Below, in pieces: positions 3,044 through 64,000 of a DNA stretch of 64,000 bases (positions within the stretch are counted from its first letter, which is position 1; each line of letters opens with the position of its first letter). Made by a program: the position numbers and the translations under genes. The notes under the pieces are model-generated. The model made no database searches. It saw nothing but the letters and a program-made list of their open reading frames with translations, and was not told the origin of the DNA. The stretch is from the IMG/VR virus record IMGVR_UViG_3300031566_000024, one strand, 5' to 3'. Source of the DNA: an uncultured virus (IMG/VR IMGVR_UViG_3300031566_000024). Its lineage: Duplodnaviria > Heunggongvirae > Uroviricota > Caudoviricetes.

Positions 3044-3090
3044 AAAAACTTGTTGACAAAAACAAAGAACTGTATTATACTTAGTATAGT
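3044..3090 (+). promoter_or_regulatory. Strong sigma70-type promoter, conserved phage promoter family copy 1
   Basis: TTGACA 3053-3058, 17 bp, TATACT 3076-3081; 47 bp identical to the reverse complement of 14138-14184. Confidence 0.9.
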
Positions 3091-3130
3091 AAGGCAGTTA
3101 GCCCGAACAAATAACTTTAAGGTGGTACTT

Positions 3131-3361
3131 ATGGAAATTATACAAGTAACTAATGGTTGGGGAAGCAAATCAGATCAAGAGGGTATAGCAGTAGGTAGAA
3201 AATATTTTTACACCTATTACCTTAATAATAATGGAGAGTGGATTAAAAATGGAAAACATAAAATAAACAAAAACAAAGAATTAGTTAAAGCTTATCGGGA
3301 TAATGACAAGAGTGTATTGAAAGAAGAATGTAACAAAGAAAAATACTGGATAAATGACTAG
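3131..3361 (+). CDS. Hypothetical protein
   Basis: ATG follows AAGGTGGTACTT; the longer TTG start in the ORF track only translates the promoter. Confidence 0.75.
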   Translation: MEIIQVTNGWGSKSDQEGIAVGRKYFYTYYLNNNGEWIKNGKHKINKNKELVKAYRDNDKSVLKEECNKEKYWIND

Positions 3362-4605: not shown

Positions 4606-5751
4606 ATGAAAGACTACAAATATATTAAGGTAAAAAATAAGTTTTATAAGCGGGTATATAGTACAAGACCACATCACAACAGGTGTGATGTATGCGATTT
4701 AGATTCGAAATGTATTAGTGGTGATATATATGGTTGCCAGGCTTATAATTATAAGCCTGGCAACACAGCTTGTTCATTCAAAGAAGTATTAGAATTGCCC
4801 GTTGGCGCCGTGATATGGTCATATGATGAAAATATGGCAATGATCTTTAAATCGGCAGTTGTTCAAAATTCGCAATGTAGGCATTGTCTTTTTGGCATTG
4901 CATCAAGAGCTGGGGTTTGTGATGTTCCATACGAACTAAATTGTGGTAACGTAAACGGTATTCATTTTGAACATCACAAACCACACAGAAACACAGAGCA
5001 GCTTTTAGCCATGGGTAAAGGGCACAATCAATCTAAGGCGTTTCGTCGGTATAGTGTTTATGATTGTATTTATGTAGGTCTGGACAAAAGCGACGGTGCC
5101 GACAGTACGGTAAATGATTTTGAACAGGCAATGAAGGATACCCAAGAAACATTGCAGCAGACGCACAAAAAGGCACTAAATACGGCATTTTTTAAGCTTG
5201 GCGGAAAAATATACGAAGAATGTAAAGATTGTGCTACCTGTCGTGATTGCGTTGCTGTTCATAGTGTGTCTCTATGTAAGATTTTGAAGGGAGTAAGGAA
5301 AAAATGCGGTACCTGTGGAACGGTGATCTTCAAACAGGTTAATACATTGCTGCCTGGTACAGTGCTATATGATTATGATACAGGGCGTTATTTGATTGTA
5401 ATGAAAGACACTGATAGGGGTCAACGTGTTACATGCTTTCCTGTATGTGTAGCAGCGAACGCAGATGGAAGTTGTACAACAGGGAAAAAATTTAATTGTG
5501 CCAATATACATTTTGCAATGTATACACAGGAGCAACCGAAAATTAAAGACCCTGCATATTATGTAATAAAAGACGGTGACAAATACTTTACGGGTGTATA
5601 TGGTGAACAACCAATGCATTTAGCACAGATACATTTTGCGCGGATATTTGATGACATTACGGTTGCACATAGAATGCTTACTGTGTACAAAACAGACAAT
5701 AAAAAATATACCGGCGCAATCCGAACGATTACAATTAGTGAAATAGATTAA
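4606..5751 (+). CDS. Cys-rich repeat protein (about four related modules)
   Basis: Repeated CxxC...C...C..F/H modules; N-terminus MKDYKYIK shared with 5809. Confidence 0.85.
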   Translation: MKDYKYIKVKNKFYKRVYSTRPHHNRCDVCDLDSKCISGDIYGCQAYNYKPGNTACSFKEVLELPVGAVIWSYDENMAMIFKSAVVQNSQCRHCLFGIASRAGVCDVPYELNCGNVNGIHFEHHKPHRNTEQLLAMGKGHNQSKAFRRYSVYDCIYVGLDKSDGADSTVNDFEQAMKDTQETLQQTHKKALNTAFFKLGGKIYEECKDCATCRDCVAVHSVSLCKILKGVRKKCGTCGTVIFKQVNTLLPGTVLYDYDTGRYLIVMKDTDRGQRVTCFPVCVAANADGSCTTGKKFNCANIHFAMYTQEQPKIKDPAYYVIKDGDKYFTGVYGEQPMHLAQIHFARIFDDITVAHRMLTVYKTDNKKYTGAIRTITISEID

Positions 5752-5808: not shown

Positions 5809-6186
5809 ATGAAAGACTACAAATATATTAAATTTAAAAATAAATTTTATGAATGCATCCCAGGTCAATTGGAATGTGATAAAGATTGTGATTTACAAAA
5901 GATGTGTACGACGAGCGAGGCAATGGATGGTTGTTATGAAGATTGGAAAGACGAAGAGAGTTGCGTATTAAAGCAAATAACTCAAATCCCAATTGGTGCT
6001 GCGGTGTGGTCATATGATGAAAATAAAGCGATTGTTGTAGTAGTTGATATAAAAGATAAAACATGCGGTAGTTGTAGGCCGTGTGTGTATTATGGAAATT
6101 GTCCGTTTCCTGATGACAGACATTGTTATGTCTATAACCGAAAAGGCTATCGAGCCTCGCATTTTGAAGTGTATAAATTAGGATAA
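5809..6186 (+). CDS. Cys-rich protein, paralog of the 4606 N-terminal half
   Basis: MKDYKYIK.KNKFY and P.GA..WSYDEN.A shared with 4606. Confidence 0.85.
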   Translation: MKDYKYIKFKNKFYECIPGQLECDKDCDLQKMCTTSEAMDGCYEDWKDEESCVLKQITQIPIGAAVWSYDENKAIVVVVDIKDKTCGSCRPCVYYGNCPFPDDRHCYVYNRKGYRASHFEVYKLG

Positions 6187-13722: not shown

Positions 13723-14115
13723 TTACGCAATTCTTTTGTCTTTTCTTGTGATTTTAGGCCCGCCGCCGTATACAGGATCAACTACGACTACGTTATAATC
13801 ATATTCCAAAATAACTTTGCCTAAAAATCTAATCTCGTCTTTTTTGCCAAGATTAATTCTAACTTCATCACAGAAAGTAGGGAGTTTTCTTTCTTCTTTT
13901 AAGGTATATTCATAACAATAATTCTTGCCTGAATCTCTTGTGTCAAAAAAACAAGTTTCTTTGTTAAGAAACAAAGACAAGAGGGTGTCTGACCAGTGAT
14001 AAAATTTTGTTCCCTTTTTAAAAAGCTTCATCCCGGTACACTCTTCTGTCCATTTCATATCTTGTCCGTTGTATCTCGCACGATCACTCACAAGCACCAT
14101 GTCACCCTTTTTCAT
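13723..14115 (-). CDS. Hypothetical protein
   Basis: AAGGAG RBS before ATG 14115, just downstream of the conserved promoter. Confidence 0.8.
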   Translation of the reverse strand: MKKGDMVLVSDRARYNGQDMKWTEECTGMKLFKKGTKFYHWSDTLLSLFLNKETCFFDTRDSGKNYCYEYTLKEERKLPTFCDEVRINLGKKDEIRFLGKVILEYDYNVVVVDPVYGGGPKITRKDKRIA

Positions 14116-14137
14116 ATTGTTCTCCTTTAAACACCTC

Positions 14138-14184
14138 ACTATACTAAGTATAATACAGTTCTTTGTTTTTGTCAACAAGTTTTT
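14138..14184 (-). promoter_or_regulatory. Conserved promoter copy, inverted
   Basis: 47-bp exact reverse-complement match to 3044-3090. Confidence 0.9.
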
Positions 14185-14303: not shown

Positions 14304-15794
14304 TTGGAAAATATGTGTACAGAGTTTGAAAACATTACAAATACAAACTTTTCAGAAGATGGTGATAAAGATAGCAAAGCCGTAAAAGCCGCAAAGAATA
14401 AAATCTCAAACGGTATTATTGCAGGCAAAATTAAAAAGCCCGCAACGTGTAAAAAGTGCGGCAAAAACACAAAACTCGAAGCACACCATAACAAAGGGTA
14501 TGACGAAAAAAACCAAACTTCAATCATATGGCTTTGTCCTACTTGCCACGTAGCTGCACATAAGAAGCTTAACGCGTGTAAGAAAAAATCAAAAGACACA
14601 ATCAATCGTATTGATGTATTCAACAACATTAATGAATATATGATTGAACCTTTTATGATTGACCAGGAAACAGGCTTTTACAGTGGTGTTGCTGTTGTTA
14701 CAAATACTGGTATATTCAATTATAGAATTAATGGTAAAACAGTAAGAGAACTTAGAACGCCCGATGAGGTAGGCAGATCATCGAGCCTTGACTCACTGAA
14801 AATGATACCGATTACAAATGAACATCCAAAGGAATTTGTAACATCTGAAAATGCACAAAAATTAAGTATTGGTATGTCAGGTGAGATTGTAAATTTTGAT
14901 AATACAGCTGTAAGTGTGCGCCTTACAATTACAGACAAAAAAGCGATTGAAGACATCAAAGCCGGCAAAGTGGCATTATCCTGTGGCTACAAAGCAACCA
15001 CAGTTGATAATGGTGGTGGTTTTGCATTTGGCAATAATAGGTATGATGTCGAGCAAACGGACATCATATACAATCACATTGCCCTGGTTGGTATGGGTCG
15101 TGCGGGTGATTTGGCAAGATTGAAATTCGATCGTGATGACGTAGGAATCAATGAAAGTACTATTAATAGTACTGATAATATAGAAACTAATGAAAAAGGA
15201 GCAATAAACATGGCTACTGAGTTACAAACATTGAGAATTGACGGCGTTGACTATTCAGTTGACAAAGACGTAATCAAAGAAGTCAACCGATTAAACAAAG
15301 ACAGCGTTGAAAAAGATACGATAATTGAAGCACTGAAAAAAGATAAAGATGTCTTACAGGCAAAAGCCGACACGCTTGACATTAAAGTCAAAGAGGCAGT
15401 TGAAATTATGAAAGCGGATGAAGGAAAATTCACTAATGAAGATGTGAAAGAAAGGATCGAATTATTCAAAATTGCCGACTCACTGAAAGTCGAATATACA
15501 GACAATGACAATAATGGCGCGATTAAAAAATTAATAATTAAAACCAAAAACGATAAAATTAATCTTGATGCAAAATCGGATGATTATATCAATGCTGCGT
15601 TCGACATTCTCAAAGAAGACATCAAGAATGAACCGGCAAAAAAGAACGTACAAAAAGCGATGTTTGACAATATGCCAGGCGACAACGCTAGTAAAAAAGA
15701 TACGCGAACAGCAAGAGAAAAATTTTGTGCTGACAATCAAGAGCGCGCTGAAAATTATAAAGGCGCTGTAAAAAATACAGGAGGTAACGCATAA
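14304..15794 (+). CDS. Head maturation protein (DUF2213-like) with N-terminal HNH-like domain and coiled-coil scaffold tail
   Basis: CKKCG..EAHH.KGY....WLCPTCH; ELRTPDEV, PITNEHP, LSCGY, NHIALV..GRAG. Confidence 0.9.
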   Translation: MENMCTEFENITNTNFSEDGDKDSKAVKAAKNKISNGIIAGKIKKPATCKKCGKNTKLEAHHNKGYDEKNQTSIIWLCPTCHVAAHKKLNACKKKSKDTINRIDVFNNINEYMIEPFMIDQETGFYSGVAVVTNTGIFNYRINGKTVRELRTPDEVGRSSSLDSLKMIPITNEHPKEFVTSENAQKLSIGMSGEIVNFDNTAVSVRLTITDKKAIEDIKAGKVALSCGYKATTVDNGGGFAFGNNRYDVEQTDIIYNHIALVGMGRAGDLARLKFDRDDVGINESTINSTDNIETNEKGAINMATELQTLRIDGVDYSVDKDVIKEVNRLNKDSVEKDTIIEALKKDKDVLQAKADTLDIKVKEAVEIMKADEGKFTNEDVKERIELFKIADSLKVEYTDNDNNGAIKKLIIKTKNDKINLDAKSDDYINAAFDILKEDIKNEPAKKNVQKAMFDNMPGDNASKKDTRTAREKFCADNQERAENYKGAVKNTGGNA

Positions 15795-31093: not shown

Positions 31094-33226
31094 ATGGCAA
31101 TAAAACCATTAGATGATCTTACTTTTGCAACAGCATCAATAACAGATCCGGCTACCGGACAGCCAAACAAGATAGTACCTAACGTAACTTATCAGACAAA
31201 TGGGTGGGTGAGTTTTGATACAGCCCCTTTTTCTTGGTTTAATTACTTGTTTAACGGCTATTACACGTGGCAACAATATTTTGAAGCCACTACTGACGAT
31301 ATTTTACTAAATAATCTGACAATTGCAGGGAATAAAACTTTTTCAGGGAGTACTATATTTCAAGCTAACATTAATGTAGACATTAATGTGTTTTCGGTTA
31401 ACACAACGTCAAATTTAGTTGGCGTCAAAGCTGATTTGGCTGTGGTATCGCCGGGGGCCGACGGTCTAATTGCAGAAGGCATTTTTCCAGTTACTTCACG
31501 CCGTGACACAAGCACAGTTGGTTTCAGTGTATTACAGTCTTTTCAAATGAAAAACAGTAGCGGCGACTACACACCTTATGCTAATTTTCTGTCTGTTATC
31601 GATGATAACACCGCCGGAGCCGAGTGTGGTTCTTTTCACATACGCTGTGTGAGTGCGGGCAATATAAGCACCCCTCAATTTATTTTCAACGATACTGGAA
31701 ATTTTACAGCAATTACAAGTATAACGATTAATGATACATTTATTAATGCTTCCGAAATAGGGATTAATAAATTAACAACGGGCAACAGGACTGCAAAACT
31801 TGATTTGTATTCGGATGATACAAATCCTTTTGGTTTAGAAATTCTAAGAAGTAGTGGTGTAAATGGTACTACGCAGCTATTGCATCATGGTACTGGCAAT
31901 CTAAGCTTTGAAACATTAGACACAAGTGCAATGAATTTTTCGACTGGAAGTACCAGCCGTGCTGTTATAGAGGCAAATGGTAATTTTGCATATAAAACAA
32001 ATTTACTTTTCGTAGATTATGTTAATAGCCGAATCGGTATCAAAAAAACTCCAACGGTGCACAACCTGGAAGTGCTAACAAGCGCTGCTATTGGAAGCAC
32101 TGTTGTAGCATCAAGCATGATTGGTATTAATCAATTAGGTACTGGTGATAGGGGCGCCTATATAGATTTTGTAGCAGAGGATACCAACCCAAATTCCGTA
32201 AGAATTATAAGAAATAGCGGAGTGAATGGTAGTTACAGCACAACTAATCAAGGCGACGGTCAAACGGTATATGAAAATGTTGGTATCGGATCACATAGAT
32301 TTCGAAATAATGGCGCCGATTCATTATATGTAACTTCTGCAAATCAAATACAAGCAGTTGCGAATACCAATGCGACATCAAAAGACACCGGCGCCTTTGT
32401 GGTGACATTGGGCGGAATGGGAATTGAACAGGATGTATGGCTGGGTGGCAGCCTTAATCATGCGAGTGCGCTGTTATTCAAGACGGGGGGAAATGAAGGC
32501 TTACGCCTTAGTAATAGTAAACTTAGTACATTAGGAGAACTTACTCCTGATTGCAGCCCTGGGGGACTTACTTTACAGCAAGGGCCTAACGATGGTTATA
32601 TTTTAACATGTAAATCAACCGATGTTGCTCATGGTATGACAACAATAGCGGAAACAGACACATATGCAACCTTTGACAAGTTCCAAGGAGGACAAGGGGG
32701 ATTGCAAATTATAGGACTAAACGGAGGTACTGGAATTAGGGGTATCTCTATATCTAGTTACGCGCCCACAACAGATAATACTACTAGTGTGGCGGGAACT
32801 GGTCAAATCGAACTTGTCAGTTACTTAAAAACCGGAACAACCGGAGGAAGTTTAGCAAGTGACGCCAATTTACTTGCTATGCGTAATGCTGGACTAACTA
32901 GACACCTTTTTAAGGGTGATGGAGATATACGCACAAGTACAGGAGTTCTAAGTATATATGATAACGAAAACGACATGTTATTAGTACACGCAGCAAGAAA
33001 CGTGCTATCAGGGAATACCTCACCATTTAAGGATAATAAAGAGTTTAAAAAATACGCCACAAGACTAAACGAATTGGGTATCATTGAAAATGGATTTGTA
33101 AGTCATCACAAAATGATGCAGCTCAACTTAGGCGCAATGGGGCAAGTTTGGAATATGATTAAAGGTATGGCAAAAGAATTCAATATTTCAGAAAAAAAAC
33201 TATTAACCTTTGCAAAACAATATTAA
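31094..33226 (+). CDS. Tail fibre protein
   Basis: P..WFN.L N-terminal anchor; Gly/Asn/Thr-rich beta repeats with internal duplication (IGIN.L.TG.R.A..D...DTNP....I.R.SGVNG twice). Confidence 0.85.
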   Translation: MAIKPLDDLTFATASITDPATGQPNKIVPNVTYQTNGWVSFDTAPFSWFNYLFNGYYTWQQYFEATTDDILLNNLTIAGNKTFSGSTIFQANINVDINVFSVNTTSNLVGVKADLAVVSPGADGLIAEGIFPVTSRRDTSTVGFSVLQSFQMKNSSGDYTPYANFLSVIDDNTAGAECGSFHIRCVSAGNISTPQFIFNDTGNFTAITSITINDTFINASEIGINKLTTGNRTAKLDLYSDDTNPFGLEILRSSGVNGTTQLLHHGTGNLSFETLDTSAMNFSTGSTSRAVIEANGNFAYKTNLLFVDYVNSRIGIKKTPTVHNLEVLTSAAIGSTVVASSMIGINQLGTGDRGAYIDFVAEDTNPNSVRIIRNSGVNGSYSTTNQGDGQTVYENVGIGSHRFRNNGADSLYVTSANQIQAVANTNATSKDTGAFVVTLGGMGIEQDVWLGGSLNHASALLFKTGGNEGLRLSNSKLSTLGELTPDCSPGGLTLQQGPNDGYILTCKSTDVAHGMTTIAETDTYATFDKFQGGQGGLQIIGLNGGTGIRGISISSYAPTTDNTTSVAGTGQIELVSYLKTGTTGGSLASDANLLAMRNAGLTRHLFKGDGDIRTSTGVLSIYDNENDMLLVHAARNVLSGNTSPFKDNKEFKKYATRLNELGIIENGFVSHHKMMQLNLGAMGQVWNMIKGMAKEFNISEKKLLTFAKQY

Positions 33227-33649: not shown

Positions 33650-34039
33650 ATGAGTGATTACGAAAAAGCATTATATGAAATCATTGAAAAATTCAGATCG
33701 GAAATGACAGCGTTTCGAGAAGATGCAAAAACAGAAATCAGAGCCCAAACACAGGACATCAAAGAAATTATGGTAATCGAGTTCAACAAAATCCACACAG
33801 AATTAAGTACAATGAGTGACAAAATCTCAAATGAACATGACAAAAATATAGTGCAAGATATGTTAATCACACAGCTCGCAGCAGATATTGGTGGGCTGTC
33901 AAAACGGTTTACCGGGAAAATTGAGACGATGGAAAAAAACAAAACCAAATTAAATTTTTTGTGGGGTGGAGCTATACTATTATTATCTGTACTTTTTACA
34001 AAAATATTACCCTCAATTTTAACAAAATTCACACCTTAA
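33650..34039 (+). CDS. Coiled-coil protein with C-terminal TM helix (holin/lysis-module candidate)
   Basis: GGAG RBS; LNFLWGGAILLLSVLF; last gene of the late operon. Confidence 0.55.
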   Translation: MSDYEKALYEIIEKFRSEMTAFREDAKTEIRAQTQDIKEIMVIEFNKIHTELSTMSDKISNEHDKNIVQDMLITQLAADIGGLSKRFTGKIETMEKNKTKLNFLWGGAILLLSVLFTKILPSILTKFTP

Positions 34040-34045
34040 AAAATA

Positions 34046-34146
34046 GCTTGCTGCATATCCGGAAACACCACAGCAAGCATTTTAATAAATAAATTAACTC
34101 CTATTTATTTAACCCGGCGCTTTATCATTCAAGAGCCGGGTGTTTT
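34046..34146. terminator. Paired terminators between convergent operons
   Basis: GCTTGCTG/CAGCAAGC 34046-34078 and ACCCGGC/GCCGGGT 34112-34141. Confidence 0.75.
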
Positions 34147-34298
34147 ACTCGTATTTTTCAAAATAACCCTTTCTTTTAAACTCTTTCCGTACCCGTACCA
34201 ACTATTCCCCCTCCCATCTTCTAAACATTCTAATATGCAAGCGTCTCTCATTAATCGGTCATACTCTTTTTTGTAATTGTAATCATTTCATTATTCAT
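34145..34298 (-). pseudogene. Frameshifted small phage gene
   Basis: AGGAG RBS, MNNEMITITK then an A6 run; adding one A continues KEYDRLMRDACILECLEDGRGNSWYGYG. Confidence 0.55.
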
Positions 34299-34955
34299 TT
34301 ATTTTCTCCTTTGTTTTTCTGTTTTATTCCCATATTTCCAGCCGACAGAACATCCATTATTTATATTCCAATTCACAACATCAAGATTGGCTTGCCCCTG
34401 GGGAGTGCCTGGTTTGATTTCCATATTGTTGTTATTTAAATAAAGGCGTGTAAGTCCCATAAGTCCATTAAGCGGACTTATGGGACTTATTGAGTTACCG
34501 TCTAAATCAAGGTCCGTAAGTCCACTTAATGGGCTGATGTCGCTTATTGAATTGCTGTATAAATAAAGGTATTCACGCTCTGTAAGTCCTCTTAATGGGC
34601 TGAGGTCACTTATTGAGTTGTATGATAAATCAAGATATGTAAGCGCTGTAAGCCCACTTAATGGGCTTATGTCACTTATTTTGTTGTCGTCTAAATCAAG
34701 GGATGTAAGCGCTGTAAGCCCGCTTAATGGGTTTATGTCGCTTATTGAGTTGTTATATAAATTAAGGTCTGTAAGCGTTGTGCAGTATTCTAAACCGGCA
34801 ATATTTGAAATCTTTTTCATACTAGCACTTAATGATTTTATCAATACCAAATCAAAAGCCAAAATCTTTCCAGTTGGCTTGCCAATCTTTAAACGGATGA
34901 CAGATTCTAAATTTGGATCAGGAAAATTCACAACCATATTATTTTCATTTTTCAT
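34299..34955 (-). CDS. Internalin-like LRR protein 7 (6 LRR units)
   Basis: N-cap FPDPNLE..IR, 22-aa LxxLxxLxLxxNxIxDxxPL repeats, C-cap MEIKPGT.QGQ.NLD.VNW. Confidence 0.93.
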   Translation of the reverse strand: MKNENNMVVNFPDPNLESVIRLKIGKPTGKILAFDLVLIKSLSASMKKISNIAGLEYCTTLTDLNLYNNSISDINPLSGLTALTSLDLDDNKISDISPLSGLTALTYLDLSYNSISDLSPLRGLTEREYLYLYSNSISDISPLSGLTDLDLDGNSISPISPLNGLMGLTRLYLNNNNMEIKPGTPQGQANLDVVNWNINNGCSVGWKYGNKTEKQRRK

Positions 34956-35812
34956 TTATTTTCTCCTCTGATTTCCGTTTTATTTCCATATTTCCAGTTA
35001 ACGTCACACTCATTATCCAGATGCCTGTTAACAATATCAAGGTTAGTTTGTCCCTGGGTGGTGCCTGGTTTGATTTCCATGTCGTTGTTCTGTAAATAAA
35101 GGTATTTAAGCGCTGTAAGCCTGTTTAATGGTGTGATGTCACTTATTGAGTTGTTAGCTAAATGAAGGTATGTAAGAGCTGTAAGGCCGCTTAATGGGCT
35201 GATATCAGTTATTGAGTTGTTATCTAAACCAAGGATTTCAAGCGCTGTAAGCCTGCTTAATGGGCTTACGTCAGTTATTGAGTTGTATGATAAACAAAGT
35301 TCTGTAAGCCCTGTAAGCCTGCTTAATGTGCTTATGTCAGTTATTGAGTTACCGTCTAAATAAAGGTCTTCAAGTTCTGCAAGTCCACTTAATGGGCTGA
35401 TATCACTTATTGAGTTGTTATCTAAATGAAGATATGTAAGCGCTGTAAGTCCGCTTAATGGACTGATGTCACTTATTAAGTTATAGTATAAATAAAGTTC
35501 TGTAAGTGCTGTAAGCCTGCTTAATGAGCTTATGTCGGTTATTGAGGTGTTGTGTAAATCAAGGGATGTAAGCTCTGTAAGCTCTCTTATTGGGCTTAGA
35601 TCACTTATTGAGTTGTTATCTAAACCAAGGTATGTAAGAGCTGTACAACATTCTAAACCGGTAATATTTGAAATATCTTTATTGCTAGCACTTAATGATT
35701 TTATTCCGAACAAATCACAAGCCAAAATCTCCCCAATTGGCTTGTTGATCTCTAAACGGATGATAGATTCTAAATTTGGATCAGGAAAATTCACAACCAT
35801 ATTATTTTTCAT
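34952..35812 (-). CDS. Internalin-like LRR protein 6 (9 LRR units)
   Basis: Same caps, 9 units. Confidence 0.93.
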   Translation of the reverse strand: MKNNMVVNFPDPNLESIIRLEINKPIGEILACDLFGIKSLSASNKDISNITGLECCTALTYLGLDNNSISDLSPIRELTELTSLDLHNTSITDISSLSRLTALTELYLYYNLISDISPLSGLTALTYLHLDNNSISDISPLSGLAELEDLYLDGNSITDISTLSRLTGLTELCLSYNSITDVSPLSRLTALEILGLDNNSITDISPLSGLTALTYLHLANNSISDITPLNRLTALKYLYLQNNDMEIKPGTTQGQTNLDIVNRHLDNECDVNWKYGNKTEIRGENK

Positions 35813-36344
35813 TTATTTCTCCTTTGTTTTCAGTTTTATTCCCATATTTCCAGTTAACATAACAACCATTATCTATATGCCAATTAACAACATCAAGATT
35901 AGTCTGCCCTTGGGTAGTGTCTGGTTTGATTTCCATGTCGTTGTAATTTAAATCAAGGTATGTAAGAGCTGTAAGCCCACTTAATGGACTTATGTCACTT
36001 ATTTTGTTGTTATCTAAATAAAGCTTTGTAAGCTTTATAAGTCCACTTAATGGACTTATGTCAGTTATTAAGTTACCGTCTAAATAAAGTTCTGTAAGCT
36101 TTATAAGTCCATTAAGTGGACTTAGGTCACTTATTGAGTTGTCATTTAAACTAAGGTATATAAGCGCTGTGCAACATTCTAAACCGTTAATATTTGAAAT
36201 ATCCTTAAAACCAGCAATTAATGATTTTATCACGATCAAATCAGATTCTAAAATATCCCCAGTTGGTTTATTGATCTTAAAACGGATGATAGCTTCTAAA
36301 TTTGGATCAGGGAAATTCACAGCCATATTATTTTTATTTTTCAT
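35802..36344 (-). CDS. Internalin-like LRR protein 5 (4 LRR units)
   Basis: Same caps, 4 units. Confidence 0.93.
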   Translation of the reverse strand: MKNKNNMAVNFPDPNLEAIIRFKINKPTGDILESDLIVIKSLIAGFKDISNINGLECCTALIYLSLNDNSISDLSPLNGLIKLTELYLDGNLITDISPLSGLIKLTKLYLDNNKISDISPLSGLTALTYLDLNYNDMEIKPDTTQGQTNLDVVNWHIDNGCYVNWKYGNKTENKGEINEK

Positions 36345-37074
36345 TTATTTCTCCTTTGTTTTCCGTTTTATTTCCATATTTCCAGCCGACATAACACCCA
36401 TTATTTAGATGCCAATTAACAACATCAAGATTTATTTGCCCTTGGGGAGTGCCTGGTTTAATTTCCATGTCGTTGTTATCTAAATCAAGGGATGTAAGCG
36501 CTGTAAGCCCACTTAATGGGCTGATATCAGTTATTGAGTTGTTAGATAAACCAAGGTGTTTAAGCGCTGTAAGCCCACTTAATGTGCTGATATCAACTAT
36601 TTCGTTCATGTCTAAATCAAGGAATGTAAGCCCTGTAAGGCTGCTTAATGGTGTTAGGTCAGTTATTTTGTTGCCGGATAAATCAAGGGATGCAAGCCCT
36701 TTAAGGCCGCTTAAAGGGCTTATGTCGCTTATTAAGGTGACAGATAAATCAAGGGATGTAAGCTCTGTAAGCCCTCTTAATGGGCTGATGTCACTTATTG
36801 AGTTATCAGATAAATCAAGGCCTGTAAGAGCTGTAAGCCTGCTTAATGGGCTGATGTCGCTTATTGAGTTGCCGTATAAATAAAGGGATGTAAGCGCTGT
36901 ACAGTACTCTAAACCGGTAATATCAGAAATATCTTTATTGCTAGCACCTAATGATTTTATTTTGACCAACTCAGATGATAGGATATCCCCTGTTGGTTTG
37001 TTGATCTTAAAACGGATGACATCTTCAAGATTTGGATCAGGAAAATTCACACCCTTATTATTTTTATTTTTCAT
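36334..37074 (-). CDS. Internalin-like LRR protein 4 (7 LRR units)
   Basis: Same caps, 7 units. Confidence 0.93.
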   Translation of the reverse strand: MKNKNNKGVNFPDPNLEDVIRFKINKPTGDILSSELVKIKSLGASNKDISDITGLEYCTALTSLYLYGNSISDISPLSRLTALTGLDLSDNSISDISPLRGLTELTSLDLSVTLISDISPLSGLKGLASLDLSGNKITDLTPLSSLTGLTFLDLDMNEIVDISTLSGLTALKHLGLSNNSITDISPLSGLTALTSLDLDNNDMEIKPGTPQGQINLDVVNWHLNNGCYVGWKYGNKTENKGEINEK

Positions 37075-37930
37075 TTATTTCTCCTTTGATTTCTGTTTTA
37101 TTCCCATATTTCCAGTTAACATAACATCCGTCATTCAGATGCCAATTAACAATATCAAGATTAGTTTGTCCCTGGGTGGTGTCTGGTTTGATTTCCATGT
37201 CGTTGTTAGATAAATCAAGGTATGTAAGCTTTGTAAGTTCGCTTAGTGGACTTATGTCACTTATTGAGTTGCCGTCTAAATAAAGTTCTGTAAGCTTTAT
37301 AAGTCCACTTAATGGACTGAGGTCACTGATTGAGTTGACATTTAAACTAAGGTATATAAGCTTTATAAGTCCACTTAATGGACTTATGTCACTTATTGAG
37401 TTGTCGCATAAACCAAGGCGTGTAAGCGCTGTAAGCCCGTTTAATGGGGTGATATCAGTTATTGAGTTGCTATTAAAACTAAGTGATGTAAGCGCTGTAA
37501 GCCTGCTTAATGGTGTTAGGTTAGTTATTTTGTTGCCGGCTAAACCAAGAAATGTAAGCTTTGTAAGCCCTCTTAATGGGCTTATGTCTCTTATTGAGTT
37601 GTTGTCTAAACCAAGGCGTGTAAGTCCTGTAAGTTCACTTAATGGGCTTAGGTCACTGATTACGTTGTATGATAAACTAAGGTATATAAGCGCTGTAAGT
37701 TCGCTTAATGGACTGATGTCACTTATTGAGTTGCTATTTAAACTAAGGTCTGTAAGAGCTGTACAGTACTCTAAACCAGTTATATTTGAAATACCCTTAA
37801 AACCAGCAATTAATGATTTTATCCCGACCAAATCAGATGATAGAATATCCCCTTTTGGCTTGTTGATCTCTAACCGGATGACAGCTTCAAGATTTAGATC
37901 AGGAAAATTCACAACCATATTATTTTTCAT
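37064..37930 (-). CDS. Internalin-like LRR protein 3 (9 LRR units)
   Basis: Same caps, 9 units. Confidence 0.93.
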   Translation of the reverse strand: MKNNMVVNFPDLNLEAVIRLEINKPKGDILSSDLVGIKSLIAGFKGISNITGLEYCTALTDLSLNSNSISDISPLSELTALIYLSLSYNVISDLSPLSELTGLTRLGLDNNSIRDISPLRGLTKLTFLGLAGNKITNLTPLSRLTALTSLSFNSNSITDITPLNGLTALTRLGLCDNSISDISPLSGLIKLIYLSLNVNSISDLSPLSGLIKLTELYLDGNSISDISPLSELTKLTYLDLSNNDMEIKPDTTQGQTNLDIVNWHLNDGCYVNWKYGNKTEIKGEINEK

Positions 37931-38524
37931 TTATTTTCTCCTCTGATTTTCTGTTTTATTTCCATGTTTCCAGTTAACGTCACACCCATTATTCAGATGC
38001 CAATTAATAACATCAAGATTAGTTTGTCCCTGGGTAGTGCCTGGTTTTATTTCCATGTTGTTGTTATATAAATCAAGTTCTGTAAGAGCTGTAAGTTCAC
38101 TTAATGGGCTGATGTCACTTATTTTGTTGTCATATAAACGAAGGAATGTAAGCGTTGTAAGTCCTCTTAATGGACTGATGTCACTGATTGAGTTGCTATC
38201 TAAATAAAGCTTTGTAAGCTTTGTAAGCCCACTTAATGGACTGATGTCACTGATTGAGTTGCTATCTAAATAAAGCTTTGTAAGCTTTGTAAGCCCACTT
38301 AACGGACTGATATTGGTTATTGGGTTATCTTCTAAATCAAGTTCTGTAAGCGCTGTACAGTATTCTAAGCCGGTAATATCAGAAATATCAGACGAACTAG
38401 CATATAATTCAGTTATCACGATCAAATCAGATTCTAAAATATCCCCAGTTGGTTTATTGATCTTAAAACGAATGATATCTTCTAGATTTTTATCAGGGAA
38501 ATTCACAACCATATTATTTTTCAT
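37931..38524 (-). CDS. Internalin-like LRR protein 2 (5 LRR units)
   Basis: Same caps, 5 units, one exactly duplicated. Confidence 0.93.
   Translation of the reverse strand: MKNNMVVNFPDKNLEDIIRFKINKPTGDILESDLIVITELYASSSDISDITGLEYCTALTELDLEDNPITNISPLSGLTKLTKLYLDSNSISDISPLSGLTKLTKLYLDSNSISDISPLRGLTTLTFLRLYDNKISDISPLSELTALTELDLYNNNMEIKPGTTQGQTNLDVINWHLNNGCDVNWKHGNKTENQRRK
38166..38302. repeat. Perfect 66-bp-period tandem duplication of one LRR unit
   Basis: CTTAATGGACTGATGTCACTGATTGAGTTGCTATCTAAATAAAGC... starts at 38166 and again at 38232. Confidence 0.9.
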
Positions 38525-39124
38525 TTATTTTCTCCTTTGTTTTTCCGTTTTATTCCCATGTTTCCAGCCGACATAACATCCGTTATCCAGATGCCAATTA
38601 ACAATATCAAGATTAGTCTGCCCCGGGGCAGTGCCTGGTTTGATTTCCATGTCGTTGTAATTTAAAACAAGGGATGTAAGCTTTGTAAGTCCACTAAGCG
38701 AACTTATGTCGGTTATTTTGTTGTAGTCTAAATAAAGGTATATAAGCCCTGTAAGCCTGCTTAATGTGCTTATGTCACTGATTGAGTTGCCGTCTAAATA
38801 AAGTTCTGTAAGCTTTATAAGCCCTCTTAATGGGTTGATGTCACTTATTGAGTTGTCATTTAAACTAAGGTATATAAGCTCTGTAAGTTCGCTTAATGGG
38901 CTAATATCAGTTATTTTGTTGTTATATAAGTAAAGGTCTGTAAGAGCTGTACAGTACTCTAAACCAGTTATATTTGAAATCTTTTTATTGCTAGCACGTA
39001 ATGATTTTATTCCGACCAAATCAGAAGCTAAAATATCCCCAGTTGGTTTATTGATCTTTAAACGGATGACAGCTTCTAGATTTTTATCAGGGAAATTCAC
39101 AACCATATTATTTTCATTTTTCAT
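38525..39124 (-). CDS. Internalin-like LRR protein 1 (5 LRR units)
   Basis: Start moved to ATG 39124 (MKNENNMVVNFPD, GGGGAG RBS) to match paralogs. Confidence 0.92.
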   Translation of the reverse strand: MKNENNMVVNFPDKNLEAVIRLKINKPTGDILASDLVGIKSLRASNKKISNITGLEYCTALTDLYLYNNKITDISPLSELTELIYLSLNDNSISDINPLRGLIKLTELYLDGNSISDISTLSRLTGLIYLYLDYNKITDISSLSGLTKLTSLVLNYNDMEIKPGTAPGQTNLDIVNWHLDNGCYVGWKHGNKTEKQRRK

Positions 39125-39929
39125 TTGTTTCTCCCCACTCTTCCCTTTTACCATATTGTTTACACACATACCACCACCAATGATTGGTTTTGTCAATGCT
39201 ACACGCATACCGCAATTTATGTTTTTGCATCTTTTTTTCCTCTGTACCGTCTTTTGTGTACATAGTCCTAAACGGGTTACAACAATAACCGGCAATACAG
39301 TTCTTACATGTGTCATCACTTTGTTTTATGACATACTGCTGATTACTAATCAAATCAACACAAGTCTTTTCTTTGTATTCTTTTTTCCATATATACCAAG
39401 CATAGACTTGCATACCTGTTATATATTTTCCGTCATCCCTAATTTCATCGCTTAACATAGGGTAACGGGTGAATGTCTCTATGTTTGTGAGGTAAAACCC
39501 ATTAAGCCCTGTAAATATTTTTTCGGAAAACCTTTGTTGTCCGGAAAAATACGATTGCGGTAGTAAAAAAGCAAATGCTTTTTGCGCAACAAGGCCTGCT
39601 TGCTGGATAAAAGCGCCAGCGTGTATAAACGGCGGATTACCTATTATGTAAGCTGGTTTTTCTGCAACAAAATCAAAAGGTTTTAAGAAATCAAATTCAG
39701 GATACTGAATTGCCTTAACAGTCTTAAAATATTGCTGCAACACCTTTACCATCGCACCCTTACCCGCTGCTGGCTCCAATACTGGCAGCGTAAAATCAAA
39801 AAAATCTTTATACTTATCTATAAATTGTCTTGTCATAGAATAAGGTGTCTGGTAATCATCATCCTTATTGCGTTGACCCTGGTTAACCTTACTATAACAT
39901 TTACCCGTTTTATTTTTTTCTTTTTCCAT
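39114..39929 (-). CDS. DNA amino-methyltransferase (probably N6-adenine) with Cys-rich tail
   Basis: D.Y.TP, LEPAAGKG (SAM binding), IIGNPPF (catalytic), AFLLP, YAWYIW. Confidence 0.88.
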   Translation of the reverse strand: MEKEKNKTGKCYSKVNQGQRNKDDDYQTPYSMTRQFIDKYKDFFDFTLPVLEPAAGKGAMVKVLQQYFKTVKAIQYPEFDFLKPFDFVAEKPAYIIGNPPFIHAGAFIQQAGLVAQKAFAFLLPQSYFSGQQRFSEKIFTGLNGFYLTNIETFTRYPMLSDEIRDDGKYITGMQVYAWYIWKKEYKEKTCVDLISNQQYVIKQSDDTCKNCIAGYCCNPFRTMYTKDGTEEKKMQKHKLRYACSIDKTNHWWWYVCKQYGKREEWGETNEK

Positions 39930-42124: not shown

Positions 42125-42361
42125 TCAATCTAATTCCAATACTTTTGCTCGCTGATTTTCTGTAATTTCTTTTCTGTAAATCCAACGGTCCCTGTGCTCC
42201 CGACATGCTTCTAATGTAGAACGTACACAAGAAAATAAACCATGTACTTTATGTCGAAAATCATATTGACACATTTCTTTTTTTATAAAAGAACTGTAAA
42301 ACATTTCATAACTCTCTTTACCTTCTTTACAAACACTACAACCGTTTTTATCGCTTTTCAT
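42125..42361 (-). CDS. Small hypothetical protein
   Basis: AAGGTGGTACTTATG start; NGCSVC..G.E.YE.F, QYD.R...G.LFSCV..TLE.CR..RD.W. Confidence 0.8.
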   Translation of the reverse strand: MKSDKNGCSVCKEGKESYEMFYSSFIKKEMCQYDFRHKVHGLFSCVRSTLEACREHRDRWIYRKEITENQRAKVLELD

Positions 42362-42441
42362 AAGTACCACCTTATTTAAAGTTAATTCGCCTACCTTTTA
42401 TTTTTAATGCCGGACGCACTAAACACCCGGCATATTATTAT

Positions 42442-42621: not shown

Positions 42622-42657
42622 AGTATATTACATAAGTTTGTTTATGTCAACAAGTTT
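42622..42657 (-). promoter_or_regulatory. Conserved-family promoter at the head of the minus-strand operon that ends in the LRR array
   Basis: AAAACTTGTTGACA; -35 at 42645-42650, 17 bp, TATACT at 42622-42627. Confidence 0.85.
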
Positions 42658-48251: not shown

Positions 48252-48325
48252 CGGGGTATATGTATGATTTGGTGTAATAAACAGGTCGTACCTGTTTATC
48301 GGAGGTTCAAGTCCTCCCGCCCCGA
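48252..48325 (+). tRNA. Atypical tRNA-like gene, anticodon CGT (Thr) on a Pro-like acceptor stem
   Basis: CGGGGTA/CGCCCCG acceptor, GGAGG-TTCAAGT-CCTCC T-arm, AACAG-GTCGTAC-CTGTT anticodon arm, poorly paired D-arm. Confidence 0.6.
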
Positions 48326-48378
48326 ATACATACAGTCTGCCAGGTAGGCAGACTGTATAATCTAAAGTTTTTTTCAAA

Positions 48379-48471
48379 CGGGCTGTGGTCTAATTGGGAG
48401 CGGCTATCTGATCCATAGCAGTAAGACAAGGGCAAACGCCTTTATTGTGAGTTCGAATCTTACCGGTCCGA
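48379..48471 (+). tRNA. Atypical tRNA-like gene, anticodon GAT (Ile) with C37 and long variable arm
   Basis: CGGGCTG/CGGTCCG acceptor, GCTAT-CTGATCC-ATAGC anticodon arm, 27-nt variable arm, GTGAG-TTCGAAT-CTTAC T-arm. Confidence 0.65.
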
Positions 48472-48540
48472 TTGAAAAAACAGTATTGCTAATTTTTAAT
48501 TTCATTAATACTTATGGGGTGTCACTCTCATAAGTATTAT

Positions 48541-48611
48541 GGCCTAATAATCTAATGGTAGGATATTAGATTTTCGATCTAAGTACCGGGGTTCGACTCC
48601 CTGTTAGGCTA
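48541..48611 (+). tRNA. tRNA-Glu (TTC)
   Basis: GGCCTAA/TTAGGCT acceptor, ATCT/GGAT D-stem, TTAGA-TTTTCGA-TCTAA anticodon arm, CGGGG-TTCGACT-CCCTG T-arm; no encoded CCA. Confidence 0.9.
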
Positions 48612-63191: not shown

Positions 63192-63462
63192 GTTTGAAAA
63201 AAAATGTAATGATTGGTTTAAACGATGTACAGATGATTTGGGGATTAATTCGCAATATGTGGCTTTAATACAAAATCCTGATTTTTTATACGCTGCATAT
63301 GTGGAAGAGATTAAAAAAGGATTAAAAGATTTTACTGTGCACATGGAAAAAGAAGTCGGAGCAGCAATAACACGAGCCGCGGCTATACATGATTCTAAGG
63401 AGCAGATAAATATTTTAATAAAAAAACTGATAAAATCAAAAAGGAAAGAAGGTGCAAAATGA
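63178..63462 (+). CDS. Hypothetical protein
   Basis: Overlaps MazG-like gene; helical. Confidence 0.65.
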   Translation: MKKDKFEKKCNDWFKRCTDDLGINSQYVALIQNPDFLYAAYVEEIKKGLKDFTVHMEKEVGAAITRAAAIHDSKEQINILIKKLIKSKRKEGAK

Positions 63463-64000
63463 ATACAGTACGGCATATATATTTTCAAAATATAGAAATT
63501 GCGGTGAGTAGTTCAGATGTATGTTCTTATACGTGTGGTGGTTCTAAGTGGGTATCCTATGATATATGGCTGGCTGTGAAGAACATTAGAAAGATTACTT
63601 ATTGTCAAACCGAAAGAGATAGAGCGTGGTTATCATACAAAGGATATAATTTTTTAGCTGTGGAAGCTGCTACACAGTCTAACAATATTGTACGTTACAA
63701 AAATGACATTGGTATTTACCACAAAGAGTGGATCACTCTAAAAGGTTGTTTGGACTATATAGACATGGTAGAAAAGAAAAAACAGGAGAATAGAATATTA
63801 CCCACTACTGTAAGAATAGACGGTGCCATAAAATGCAATATAAAAGCTTCTGTATCGAAAGACGTAAAAGAAAAACTAGAAGATCTTAAATCATATGTAA
63901 CAACTTATTGTGGATATGTAATAAGAGATTGTGATCCCGCATTACATAATGGAAATAATTTTTATGTTGATGGTACAGAGTGTACAGACGATGTTAAGCC
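63459..64000 (+). CDS. Hypothetical protein, truncated by the window end
   Basis: MNTVRHIYFQNIEIAV..., open to 64000; ATGA overlap. Confidence 0.7.
   Translation, partial: MNTVRHIYFQNIEIAVSSSDVCSYTCGGSKWVSYDIWLAVKNIRKITYCQTERDRAWLSYKGYNFLAVEAATQSNNIVRYKNDIGIYHKEWITLKGCLDYIDMVEKKKQENRILPTTVRIDGAIKCNIKASVSKDVKEKLEDLKSYVTTYCGYVIRDCDPALHNGNNFYVDGTECTDDVK

What the first reader, a model, noticed from the sequence alone, without database searches (positions are those of the whole stretch)
34299..39124. Tandem array of seven internalin-like LRR genes: a possible phage variable-binder repertoire
Seen: seven translationally coupled paralogs share an N-cap (VNFPD.NLE..IR..I.KP.G.IL..DL) and C-cap (MEIKP.T..GQ.NLD..N.....C.V.WK.GNKTE) around 5, 5, 9, 7, 4, 9 and 6 LRR units in transcription order (45 units). 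The framework is nearly constant, while the x positions of xLxLxxN are hypervariable. No copy has a signal peptide, TM helix, wall anchor or enzyme domain. Known: those positions line the concave binding face of internalins and lamprey VLRs. Inference: a cytoplasmic, probably early-expressed panel of binders, for example against host defence proteins, diversified by repeat shuffling. I know of no characterised phage system like this, but did not search.
Basis: partly seen in the sequence, partly recalled or inferred. Interest (0 to 1): 0.92.

Follow-up and report, generated by a model that had tools for sequence, protein, structure and literature searches.

The report
Phage array of seven LRR binders
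An uncultured soil phage spends about 7% of its genome on seven back-to-back genes for small soluble leucine-rich-repeat proteins that keep a rigid scaffold but differ on their binding face, and whose number and make-up change between near-identical phages; they look like a fast-evolving set of binders for unknown host targets.

Summary
Seven intact paralogous genes lie on the minus strand at 34299-39124. Each encodes only an N-cap, 3-8 full 22-residue internalin-class LRR units and a C-cap, with no signal peptide or TM segment. All are linked by Shine-Dalgarno plus stop/start junctions to each other and to an upstream orphan DNA methyltransferase.

The window is a 64.8-kb virulent-looking myovirus record. 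Variability peaks at positions 3, 5, 7 and 8 of LxxLxLxxN. The strand half of the unit has pN/pS 1.71, the convex half 0.26. Framework codons are frozen at the DNA level.

A relative with 96-98% identical flanks carries three mosaic LRR genes instead of seven. Another assembly lacks exactly one 22-residue unit. So a repeat-shuffled binder repertoire is supported.

Cytoplasmic location is inferred only from the missing export signal. Early expression and an anti-defence role are not shown. The host and the targets are unknown.

The cap pair is rare: 9 hits in 1.84 billion representatives. Outside this phage it occurs in bacterial lipoproteins or membrane proteins.

I found no published phage counterpart. 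This scan has already noted unrelated small-LRR gene arrays in T4-like jumbo phages on other DNA. Verdict: real, unusual, function open.

The parts
39114..39929 (-). Orphan DNA methyltransferase (NPPF motif). It lies directly upstream, and its stop overlaps the start of LRR gene 1 by 11 nt.
   Evidence: phrog_799 DNA methyltransferase, E 5e-26. Coordinates and junction.
38525..39124 (-). LRR gene 1, 199 aa: N-cap, 4 full units, C-cap.
   Evidence: AlphaFold2 model with alignment: pLDDT 94.3, one capped solenoid.
37931..38524 (-). LRR gene 2, 197 aa, 4 full units. Two neighbouring units are 63/66 nt identical. Another assembly (P0022) lacks exactly one of them.
37064..37930 (-). LRR gene 3, 288 aa, 8 full units. 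Units 1-6 are 91-100% identical in DNA to gene 1 of relative L008.
36334..37074 (-). LRR gene 4, 246 aa, 6 full units. Units 3-5 and the C-cap (89-100%) are shared with L008 gene 2.
   Evidence: Single-sequence model: core pLDDT above 90. Foldseek top hits are InlC2, InlA and InlB.
35802..36344 (-). LRR gene 5, 180 aa, 3 full units.
34952..35812 (-). LRR gene 6, 286 aa, 8 full units.
34299..34955 (-). LRR gene 7, 218 aa, 5 units, one shortened to 19 aa.
34129..34298 (-). Small ORF after the array, split here by a frameshift in a poly-A run. In relative L008 and protein P0013 it is intact and fused to the last LRR gene.
   Evidence: Run X4 has one more base at 34266.
34030..34150 (.). Hairpins between the convergent LRR operon and the tail-fibre operon; a likely two-way terminator.
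   Evidence: Read from the sequence. One terminator-like site on the + strand at 34137-34151. Function inferred.
42622..42650 (-). Best sigma-70-like promoter match on the operon strand (TTGACA-17-TATACT, 11 of 12), between primase and the genes leading to the array.
   Evidence: A consensus match only: the scan as a whole found no more sites than shuffles (62 against 61.1).

Best explanation
The seven genes are a phage-borne multigene family of small, soluble, acidic LRR proteins. Each is a single capped solenoid whose concave beta-sheet face is the binding surface. They are probably made inside the infected cell from the leftward replication/methyltransferase operon, by coupled translation. 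Each paralog probably binds a different, variable host protein (or a protein of a competing element), so the set acts as a host-range or counter-defence panel. The panel is renewed by unequal crossing-over and gene conversion between the repeats and caps, with selection for new amino acids on the concave face. Shown: the anatomy, the fold, the pattern of variability, and gain, loss and shuffling between relatives. Inferred: the intracellular site, the timing, and the kind of target.
For: Anatomy and coupling.

Fold: the AF2 model reaches pLDDT 94.3 and pTM 0.89, with caps integral to the solenoid. Foldseek top PDB hits are internalins, E 2e-18, 36-46% identity, rmsd 1-2 A.

No export signal: 0 of 7 phage copies have a hydrophobic N-terminus, whereas 6 of 6 cellular relatives checked do.

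Variability: entropy 2.4-2.95 bits at unit positions 3, 5, 7 and 8, rich in Y, D, S, G and N. Strand half pN/pS is 1.71 (1.36-2.18) against 0.26 in the convex half and 0.32-0.38 in the caps. Only 2 of 28 bacterial LRR control loci show a ratio above 1.

Turnover: relative L008 has 96-98% identical flanks but 3 genes instead of 7, built as mosaics of window units. P0022 equals gene 2 minus one unit, 175/175 otherwise identical.

Context: the array is the distal end of a minus-strand gene string of helicase, primase, small ORFs and an orphan methyltransferase. Orphan methyltransferases are a usual phage anti-restriction device (established knowledge). No terminator-like site lies on that strand between 42829 and the array. 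Structural genes lie on the other strand.

The phage has its own polymerase, clamp loader and recombinase, and no integrase was found.
Against: No expression data: no RNA run holds the stretch, so timing is a guess.

The host is unknown, so no target can be proposed or tested.

The closest cellular proteins with the same cap pair are lipoproteins or membrane proteins. The domain's native setting is therefore extracytoplasmic, which fits an extracellular or virion role at least as well.

The array abuts the tail-fibre module, and the tail fibre's receptor-binding part also differs between the two relatives.

PADLOC gives nothing.

The pN/pS figures come from paralogous repeat units that are not independent, and some x positions are saturated; the class of positions 3, 5, 7 and 8 alone gives 0.79.
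Confidence: 0.45

Rival explanations
1. Virion-associated binders. The LRR proteins ride on the particle as alternative adhesins or receptor-binding adaptors on the baseplate or fibres, or are packed in the head and injected. The conserved caps or termini would serve as the docking part.
For: The array lies next to the tail-fibre module, in convergent orientation. The fibre's distal part is swapped in the same relative that has a different array. Cellular relatives are surface proteins. Passages of a Goslar preprint describe virion fibre proteins with LRR/beta-helix domains. A vibriophage paper reports a weak LRR-like ORF in a tail module. Earlier notes of this scan propose capsid-loaded LRR families in jumbo phages (unchecked).
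Against: The genes are on the strand and in the gene string of replication genes, not structural genes. The AF2 model shows both caps as integral parts of one solenoid. Only about 4 disordered C-terminal residues are left over (mean pLDDT also drops over the first 10), so there is no separate anchor domain. No N- or C-terminal peptide is shared with any of the 73 other window ORFs I listed, including sheath, capsid and fibre (by eye).
Confidence: 0.2
2. Lysis-released extracellular proteins. These would be soluble copies of a host surface LRR lipoprotein family, set free when the cell bursts. They would bind the same outside ligand: a receptor on neighbouring cells, matrix, or a eukaryotic grazer or host.
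For: The same N-cap plus C-cap pair occurs in lipoproteins P0027, P0121 and P0124 and in the membrane protein P0122. LRR-only soluble binders that act outside the producer, such as InlC and YopM, are known (recalled).
Against: There is no signal peptide. The runs that hold the phage are labelled soil metagenomes, and nothing points to a eukaryotic partner. Seven diversified copies are costly for a product that is diluted on release (inference).
Confidence: 0.12
3. Expansion without function, or an assembly artefact. The array would be selfish or neutral repeat amplification, or a mis-assembly of fewer genes.
For: No contig of the public runs spans the array. Contigs break inside it: the L001/L009 contig ends after codon 64 of the first LRR gene. 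One unit difference (P0022) could be an assembler collapse of two units that are 63/66 identical.
Against: All 7 frames are intact with conserved caps (dN/dS 0.32-0.38). The copies differ by 11-26% in cap DNA, so short reads can tell them apart. Unique pieces recur with 0 differences in 3 runs, at depth like the flanks. An independent contig, L008, carries an intact 3-gene version.
Confidence: 0.05
4. Targeted mutagenesis of the diversity-generating-retroelement (DGR) type makes the variable codons.
For: Variable codons change at bases 1-2 while base 3 stays fixed: position 5 is NNT in 36 of 37 units and position 10 is NNA in 37 of 37. This recalls AAY-to-NNY diversification (recalled).
Against: No reverse transcriptase was found among the window's ORFs scanned with PHROGs and Pfam. 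Framework adenines (TTA, AAC, ACA, ATA) are invariant. 38 dispersed units do not fit a template/variable repeat pair.
Confidence: 0.02

Closest known systems
Listeria internalins, LRR domain (InlC2/InlH, InlA, InlB; PDB 4fho, 1o6v, 1h6t)
   Same: 22-residue LRR class. Foldseek E 2e-18 to 1e-15, 36-46% identity, rmsd about 1-2 A over 170-190 residues. The concave face is the binding face (established for InlA and InlB).
   Different: No signal peptide, no Ig-like inter-repeat domain, no LPXTG or GW anchor. The N-cap is different (LRR_EndoS type) and so is the C-cap. NCBIfam internalin models score 86-204 bits against cut-offs of 1050-1600. Encoded by a phage.
Unnamed bacterial lipoprotein or membrane LRR proteins with the same cap pair (P0124, P0121, P0027, P0122)
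   Same: Same N-cap, same 22-residue units and the rare C-cap N.ME/V.I...G..NL..VN.H..NGC.V.W. These are among only 9 hits at E<=1e-3 in 1.84 billion representatives.
   Different: They carry a lipoprotein signal or a polytopic membrane domain, with extra Ig-like repeats in P0121 and three tandem mini-domains in one chain in P0027. They are not in a phage. Their organisms are unknown.
Small-LRR multigene families of T4-like jumbo phages
   Same: Tandem arrays of small capped LRR genes in a phage. The gene set differs between close strains, and modules are shuffled by homologous recombination.
   Different: A different phage lineage (about 300-kb T4-like, against a 65-kb myovirus here). Those copies are said to carry a T4-like capsid-targeting leader, and none is evident here. 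No sequence look-alike was found by the word index.
LRR and ankyrin multigene families of giant viruses and entomopoxviruses
   Same: Virus-encoded families of repeat-protein paralogs. All 47 named proteins among the top 50 BFVD structural neighbours are from such viruses; 3 are unnamed.
   Different: Those viruses infect eukaryotes. Many copies carry F-box or other adaptor domains. Sequence identity is 15-34%.
Lamprey variable lymphocyte receptors
   Same: A constant LRR framework with diversity at concave-face positions, and modules recombined at short homologies (recalled).
   Different: VLRs are assembled somatically from cassettes, have disulfide-bonded LRRNT and LRRCT caps, and are secreted or GPI-anchored. 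Here the diversity is germline, spread over separate genes.

Membership tests
LRR superfamily, 22-residue SDS22/internalin-like class | Tandem LxxLxLxxNxIxDIxPLxxLxx units of 22 residues forming a solenoid with a parallel beta-sheet | tested here: met
   38 units, consensus. Pfam LRR_4 and LRR_8 in 7 of 7. AF2 strands every 22 residues. Foldseek hits.
Internalin family (Listeria class 1 internalins, InlC) | N-terminal signal peptide | tested here: not met
   Hydropathy of the first 31 residues is at most 0.79 in 7 of 7.
Internalin family (Listeria class 1 internalins, InlC) | Ig-like inter-repeat region after the LRRs, and a cell-wall anchor (LPXTG or GW) in the anchored classes | tested here: not met
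   Only LRR families in Pfam. The proteins end about 45 residues after the last unit. NCBIfam internalin models are far below cut-off.
Diversity-generating retroelement target | A reverse transcriptase and a template repeat nearby, with variation confined to template adenines | tested here: not met
   No RT among the ORFs scanned. Framework adenines are invariant.
Known anti-defence or defence protein families | Match to a model of a described system | tested here: not met
   PADLOC: 0 of 12 proteins of the operon and neighbours. No anti-defence library was available, so that side is untested.
Tandem LRR gene clusters evolving by unequal crossing-over and gene conversion (plant R-gene type; recalled) | Copy-number change and mosaic exchange of repeat blocks between paralogs in close relatives | tested here: met
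   7 against 3 genes with 96-98% identical flanks. L008 gene 1 equals window gene 3 units 1-6 plus gene 1 units 2-3. One-unit difference in P0022.
Phage virion, receptor-binding or packaged proteins | Presence in particles, an anchor domain, or a capsid-targeting leader | not testable with these tools
   No proteomics. No shared terminal peptide with structural proteins. No separate domain in the model.

The most novel reading that the evidence does not exclude
Phages keep germline 'counter-immune repertoires'. On this reading the array is a heritable panel of LRR binders, each neutralising a different host defence sensor or effector. The frozen framework codons (CTT/CTT/TTA/AAC/CTT in 35-37 of 37 units) would be kept as recombination homology, so that binding-face cassettes can be reshuffled quickly. 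That would be a viral mirror image of LRR-based immune receptors.
Probability: 0.2. Interest if true: 0.85.

Novelty: new variant of a known kind. Interest (0 to 1): 0.62.

Why it matters
LRR proteins are the standard recognition scaffold of cellular immunity, and repeat-protein gene families are host-range determinants in large eukaryotic viruses. An equivalent in ordinary-sized phages is not in the literature I could search. Here a 65-kb phage gives 4.8 kb to such a family. The family shows excess amino-acid change on the binding-face half of the unit and turns over between near-identical genomes. If the targets are host defence or takeover proteins, this would be a new class of phage counter-measure. 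It would also be a natural source of compact, stable, cysteine-poor binders. The locus additionally gives a clean case for studying how repeat shuffling and selection act together.

Tried and rejected
RNA evidence: no RNA holder was listed for the stretch, so nothing can be said on expression.

Whole-array confirmation: public contigs tile the array but none spans it. One 194-bp bin (37098-37291) had depth 1.84 in run X1 against 23.6 in X2. No long-read run was available.

Relatives by cap motifs: IMG/VR scans found only the 38-kb relative. The first genome scan found nothing. The second found 50 bacterial loci that share only the common N-cap unit, so they gave no host.

Host: not identified. 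DUF3873 hints at Bacteroidota, but the Bacteroidota promoter motif (recalled) is not enriched, with 3 matches against 4.28 expected. The best promoter-like sites are sigma-70 type.

Promoter scan: 62 sites against 61.1 in shuffles, so it is not evidence by itself.

Class-level dN/dS of positions 3, 5, 7 and 8 alone is 0.79, because positions 7 and 8 are saturated at synonymous sites. I therefore report the half-unit contrast instead.

Antisense ORFs across the LRR genes are rejected as genes. They are broken wherever unit position 5 is Tyr, and they vary between copies.

GenBank phages: 29 of 50,697 records matched. 28 are unannotated multi-contig 'Listeria phage LM 4-11-1 / 4-14-1' records and 1 is an Enterococcus phage record. 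I take these as probable host internalin DNA but did not inspect them.

BLASTP of the two tail fibres did not list the shared N-terminus. That N-terminus is visible in the translations and in the DNA match.

Complex prediction was not used, because no specific partner could be justified.

Literature: six searches gave no paper on tandem small-LRR gene arrays in phages. Matsushima et al. 2021 (Arch Virol 166:43), on LRRs of dsDNA viruses, was seen only as a reference in PMC10945359 and was not read; it may bear on the novelty claim.


Full report
**What is there.** The window is all but the first 1.5 kb of a 64,757-bp virus record that CheckV rates complete. PHROG and Pfam scans show a contractile-tailed phage. 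It has a portal, prohead protease, major head protein, sheath, tape measure, baseplate and a 710-aa fibre on the + strand (10168-34039). It also has its own polymerase, clamp, clamp loader, UvsX-like recombinase and terminase. No integrase or reverse transcriptase was found. Its major head protein is at most 34% identical to any of 50,697 GenBank phage records.

Between 45547 and 34299 the minus strand carries an unbroken gene string: helicase, primase, several small ORFs, an orphan DNA methyltransferase (39114-39929) and then the seven LRR genes.

**Check of the observation.** All have the same N-cap and C-cap. Each gene start is preceded by AGGAGAAA(A)TAAATG lying inside the previous gene. 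Stops and starts abut or overlap by 4 or 11 nt, and the methyltransferase stop overlaps gene 1 in the same way.

Between the caps there are 4, 4, 8, 6, 3, 8 and 5 full 22-residue units, 38 in all, one cut to 19 residues.

None of the seven has a hydrophobic N-terminus or a TM-like window. All six cellular relatives I checked have one. Six of the seven are acidic (pI 4.4-5.0; gene 1 is 6.7).

Cap DNA identity between copies is 74-89%, so the copies are old enough to be assembled apart. Contigs of three soil runs tile the array with zero differences, at depths like the flanks. None spans it, so the gene order still rests on the original assembly.

**Structure.** With a 14-row alignment AlphaFold2 gives gene 1 a mean pLDDT of 94.3 and pTM 0.89. 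The model is one solenoid with a strand every 22 residues, an N-cap helix (14-24) and a C-cap helix (166-180) plus strand. Only the last four residues are below pLDDT 50, and the first ten average 74. The caps are therefore structural caps, not separate docking domains.

The single-sequence model of gene 4 finds Listeria InlC2, InlA, InlB and InlH as best PDB neighbours (E 2e-18 and weaker, 36-46% identity).

In the viral structure library, all 47 named proteins among the top 50 neighbours come from giant viruses or entomopoxviruses. Three are unnamed, and no phage is named.

**Variability.** Across the 38 units the framework is nearly fixed: L1, L4, L6, N9, I11, L17 and L20. Entropy peaks at positions 3, 5, 7 and 8 (2.4-2.95 bits) and at position 22 (2.0). 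Tyr, Asp, Ser, Gly and Asn dominate there. In the models the strand covers positions 3-5. By standard LRR geometry (established knowledge) the x residues of xLxLxx face the concave surface.

At the codon level (37 units, without the shortened one) the pattern is unusual. L1, L4 and L20 are CTT in 37 of 37 units, L6 is TTA in 36, and N9 is AAC in 35. Yet the phage uses CTT for only 22% of Leu and AAC for 30% of Asn in eight large genes.

The variable codons change at bases 1 and 2 and keep base 3. Position 5 is NNT in 36 of 37, position 10 is NNA in 37 of 37, and position 8 is NNC in 30 of 37.

- The strand half (codons 20-22 and 1-10) has pS 0.16 and pN 0.28, ratio 1.71, with a bootstrap over units of 1.36-2.18.
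- The convex half (codons 11-19) has pS 0.56 and pN 0.15, ratio 0.26.
- The caps give dN/dS of 0.32-0.38, with pS 0.31-0.33.

As a control I ran the same script on the bacterial LRR loci fetched. Of 50 loci, 28 had at least six units in one frame; the other 22 were dropped. Twenty-six of the 28 give strand-half ratios of 0.39-0.86, and two (L017, L030) exceed 1. The one L008 gene analysed (8 units in one frame) gives 2.05.

So the excess of amino-acid change on the binding-face half is real and uncommon, but not unique. The units are paralogous and not independent, and the class of positions 3, 5, 7 and 8 alone gives 0.79 because of saturation. This is therefore support for diversifying selection, not proof. 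Why synonymous sites are frozen only in the strand half is unexplained.

**Relatives.** A metagenome contig (L008, 32.8 kb) is 96-98% identical over 7 kb of the upstream flank, and the downstream flank lies within an 88.5%-identical block. It has three LRR genes (288, 244 and 257 aa) where the window has seven.

Unit by unit:
- L008 gene 1 equals window gene 3 units 1-6 (91-100% DNA identity), followed by window gene 1 units 2-3 (92-97%).
- L008 gene 2 has window gene 4's units 3-5 (89-100%) and its C-cap (99%), flanked by units closest to genes 2, 6 and 3.
- L008 gene 3 is a more diverged chimera, fused to the small downstream ORF.

A protein from another assembly (P0022, on a 64,693-bp contig) is gene 2 minus exactly one 22-residue unit, and is otherwise 175/175 identical. 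A third contig (L001/L009, 38 kb) breaks 64 codons into its first LRR gene.

The fibre gene of L008 shares only its first 81 or so codons with the window's. More distant phages whose methyltransferase is 44-45% identical have no LRR gene beside it. The array is thus a lineage-specific, fast-changing locus.

**Origin of the family.** A profile of the 39-residue C-cap finds 9 proteins at E<=1e-3 among 1.84 billion representatives. Two are this phage lineage. Four (P0027, P0121, P0122, P0124) are cellular-looking proteins with the same N-cap, units and C-cap behind a lipoprotein signal or a polytopic membrane domain. The other three are weak or partial matches.

The N-cap unit alone is common in many bacterial phyla. 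In IMG/VR both cap-motif scans return only the close relative. The likely history, by inference, is capture of an exported bacterial LRR domain, loss of the signal peptide, and amplification in the phage.

**How it most likely works.** Shown: seven soluble capped LRR solenoids with different concave faces, coupled in translation to each other and to an orphan methyltransferase, and reshuffled between close relatives.

Inferred: they are made in the infected cell with the replication and anti-restriction genes. Each binds a different variable host protein, so the set widens or defends host range. I give this 0.45.

The main rival (0.2) is a virion role. The array adjoins the fibre module, its cellular cousins are surface proteins, and phage particle proteins with LRR-like parts are in print (passages read). 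Against it stand the strand and operon, the lack of any anchor domain, and the lack of a shared terminal tag. Release at lysis for an outside role (0.12), artefact or junk (0.05) and DGR-type mutagenesis (0.02) are less likely, for the reasons given in their entries.

**Comparison and novelty.** The proteins are of the internalin LRR class but fail the internalin family tests: no signal peptide, no inter-repeat domain, no anchor, and scores below NCBIfam cut-offs. They evolve as tandem LRR clusters are known to evolve.

Six full-text searches found no description of tandem small-LRR gene arrays in phages. One survey of viral LRRs could not be read.

Earlier notes of this scan, unchecked by me, report unrelated small-LRR arrays in T4-like jumbo phages on other DNA. 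No look-alike sequence turned up by word index. I therefore file this as a new variant of a known kind: real and unusual, with function and targets open.

Noticed in passing
window 34129-34298 (-): The small ORF after the last LRR gene is split by a frameshift in a poly-A run, here and in runs X1-X3. It is intact and fused to the last LRR gene in L008 and P0013, and run X4 has the extra base.
   Followed up: partly
window 31094-33226 (+) against L008 12423-14504 (-): The tail fibre keeps about 81 N-terminal codons, but the rest is unrelated between two phages that are otherwise 96-98% identical in their upstream flank. This looks like a swapped receptor-binding part.
   Followed up: partly
window 34299-39124, 66-nt units: Synonymous sites are frozen in the strand half of the LRR unit (one codon in 35-37 of 37 units) but vary normally in the convex half and in the caps. 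This is unexplained.
   Followed up: partly
window 48252-48611 (+): A tRNA cluster: tRNA-Glu, a 93-nt tRNA-like gene that ARAGORN calls with a four-base anticodon (Rfam 32.7 bits), and a third match just below threshold.
   Followed up: partly
window 34618-38576 (+), antisense of the LRR genes: Long open frames on the antisense strand translate to LRR-like repeats (E down to 6e-13 against gene 4). They are broken wherever unit position 5 is Tyr, so I take them as a by-product of the periodic sequence.
   Followed up: partly
window 42125-42370 (-): An ORF with DUF3873 (PF12989). Among 14 control genomes the family rings only in Bacteroides thetaiotaomicron, a weak hint at the host phylum. The sigma-70-type promoter matches do not support it.
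   Followed up: partly
window 4606-5751 / 5809-6186 and 3050-3361 / 13723-14178: Two further pairs of ORFs share their first 15 or so residues; they are possible paralogs of unknown function.
   Followed up: no
window 14304-15794 (+): The prohead protease ORF has an HNH-endonuclease-like N-terminal part (PHROG matches over residues 23-119) ahead of the protease part (residues 120-483).
   Followed up: no
P0027 (394 aa, metagenome protein): A bacterial lipoprotein made of three tandem mini-domains, each N-cap plus 1-2 LRR units plus C-cap of the same rare family. It is the fused-chain counterpart of the phage's separate genes.
   Followed up: no
window 63259-64000: These bases lie off the end of the 64,757-bp record as mapped by the genome tool, although the window holds no N. 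The window may wrap around a circularly permuted record.
   Followed up: no
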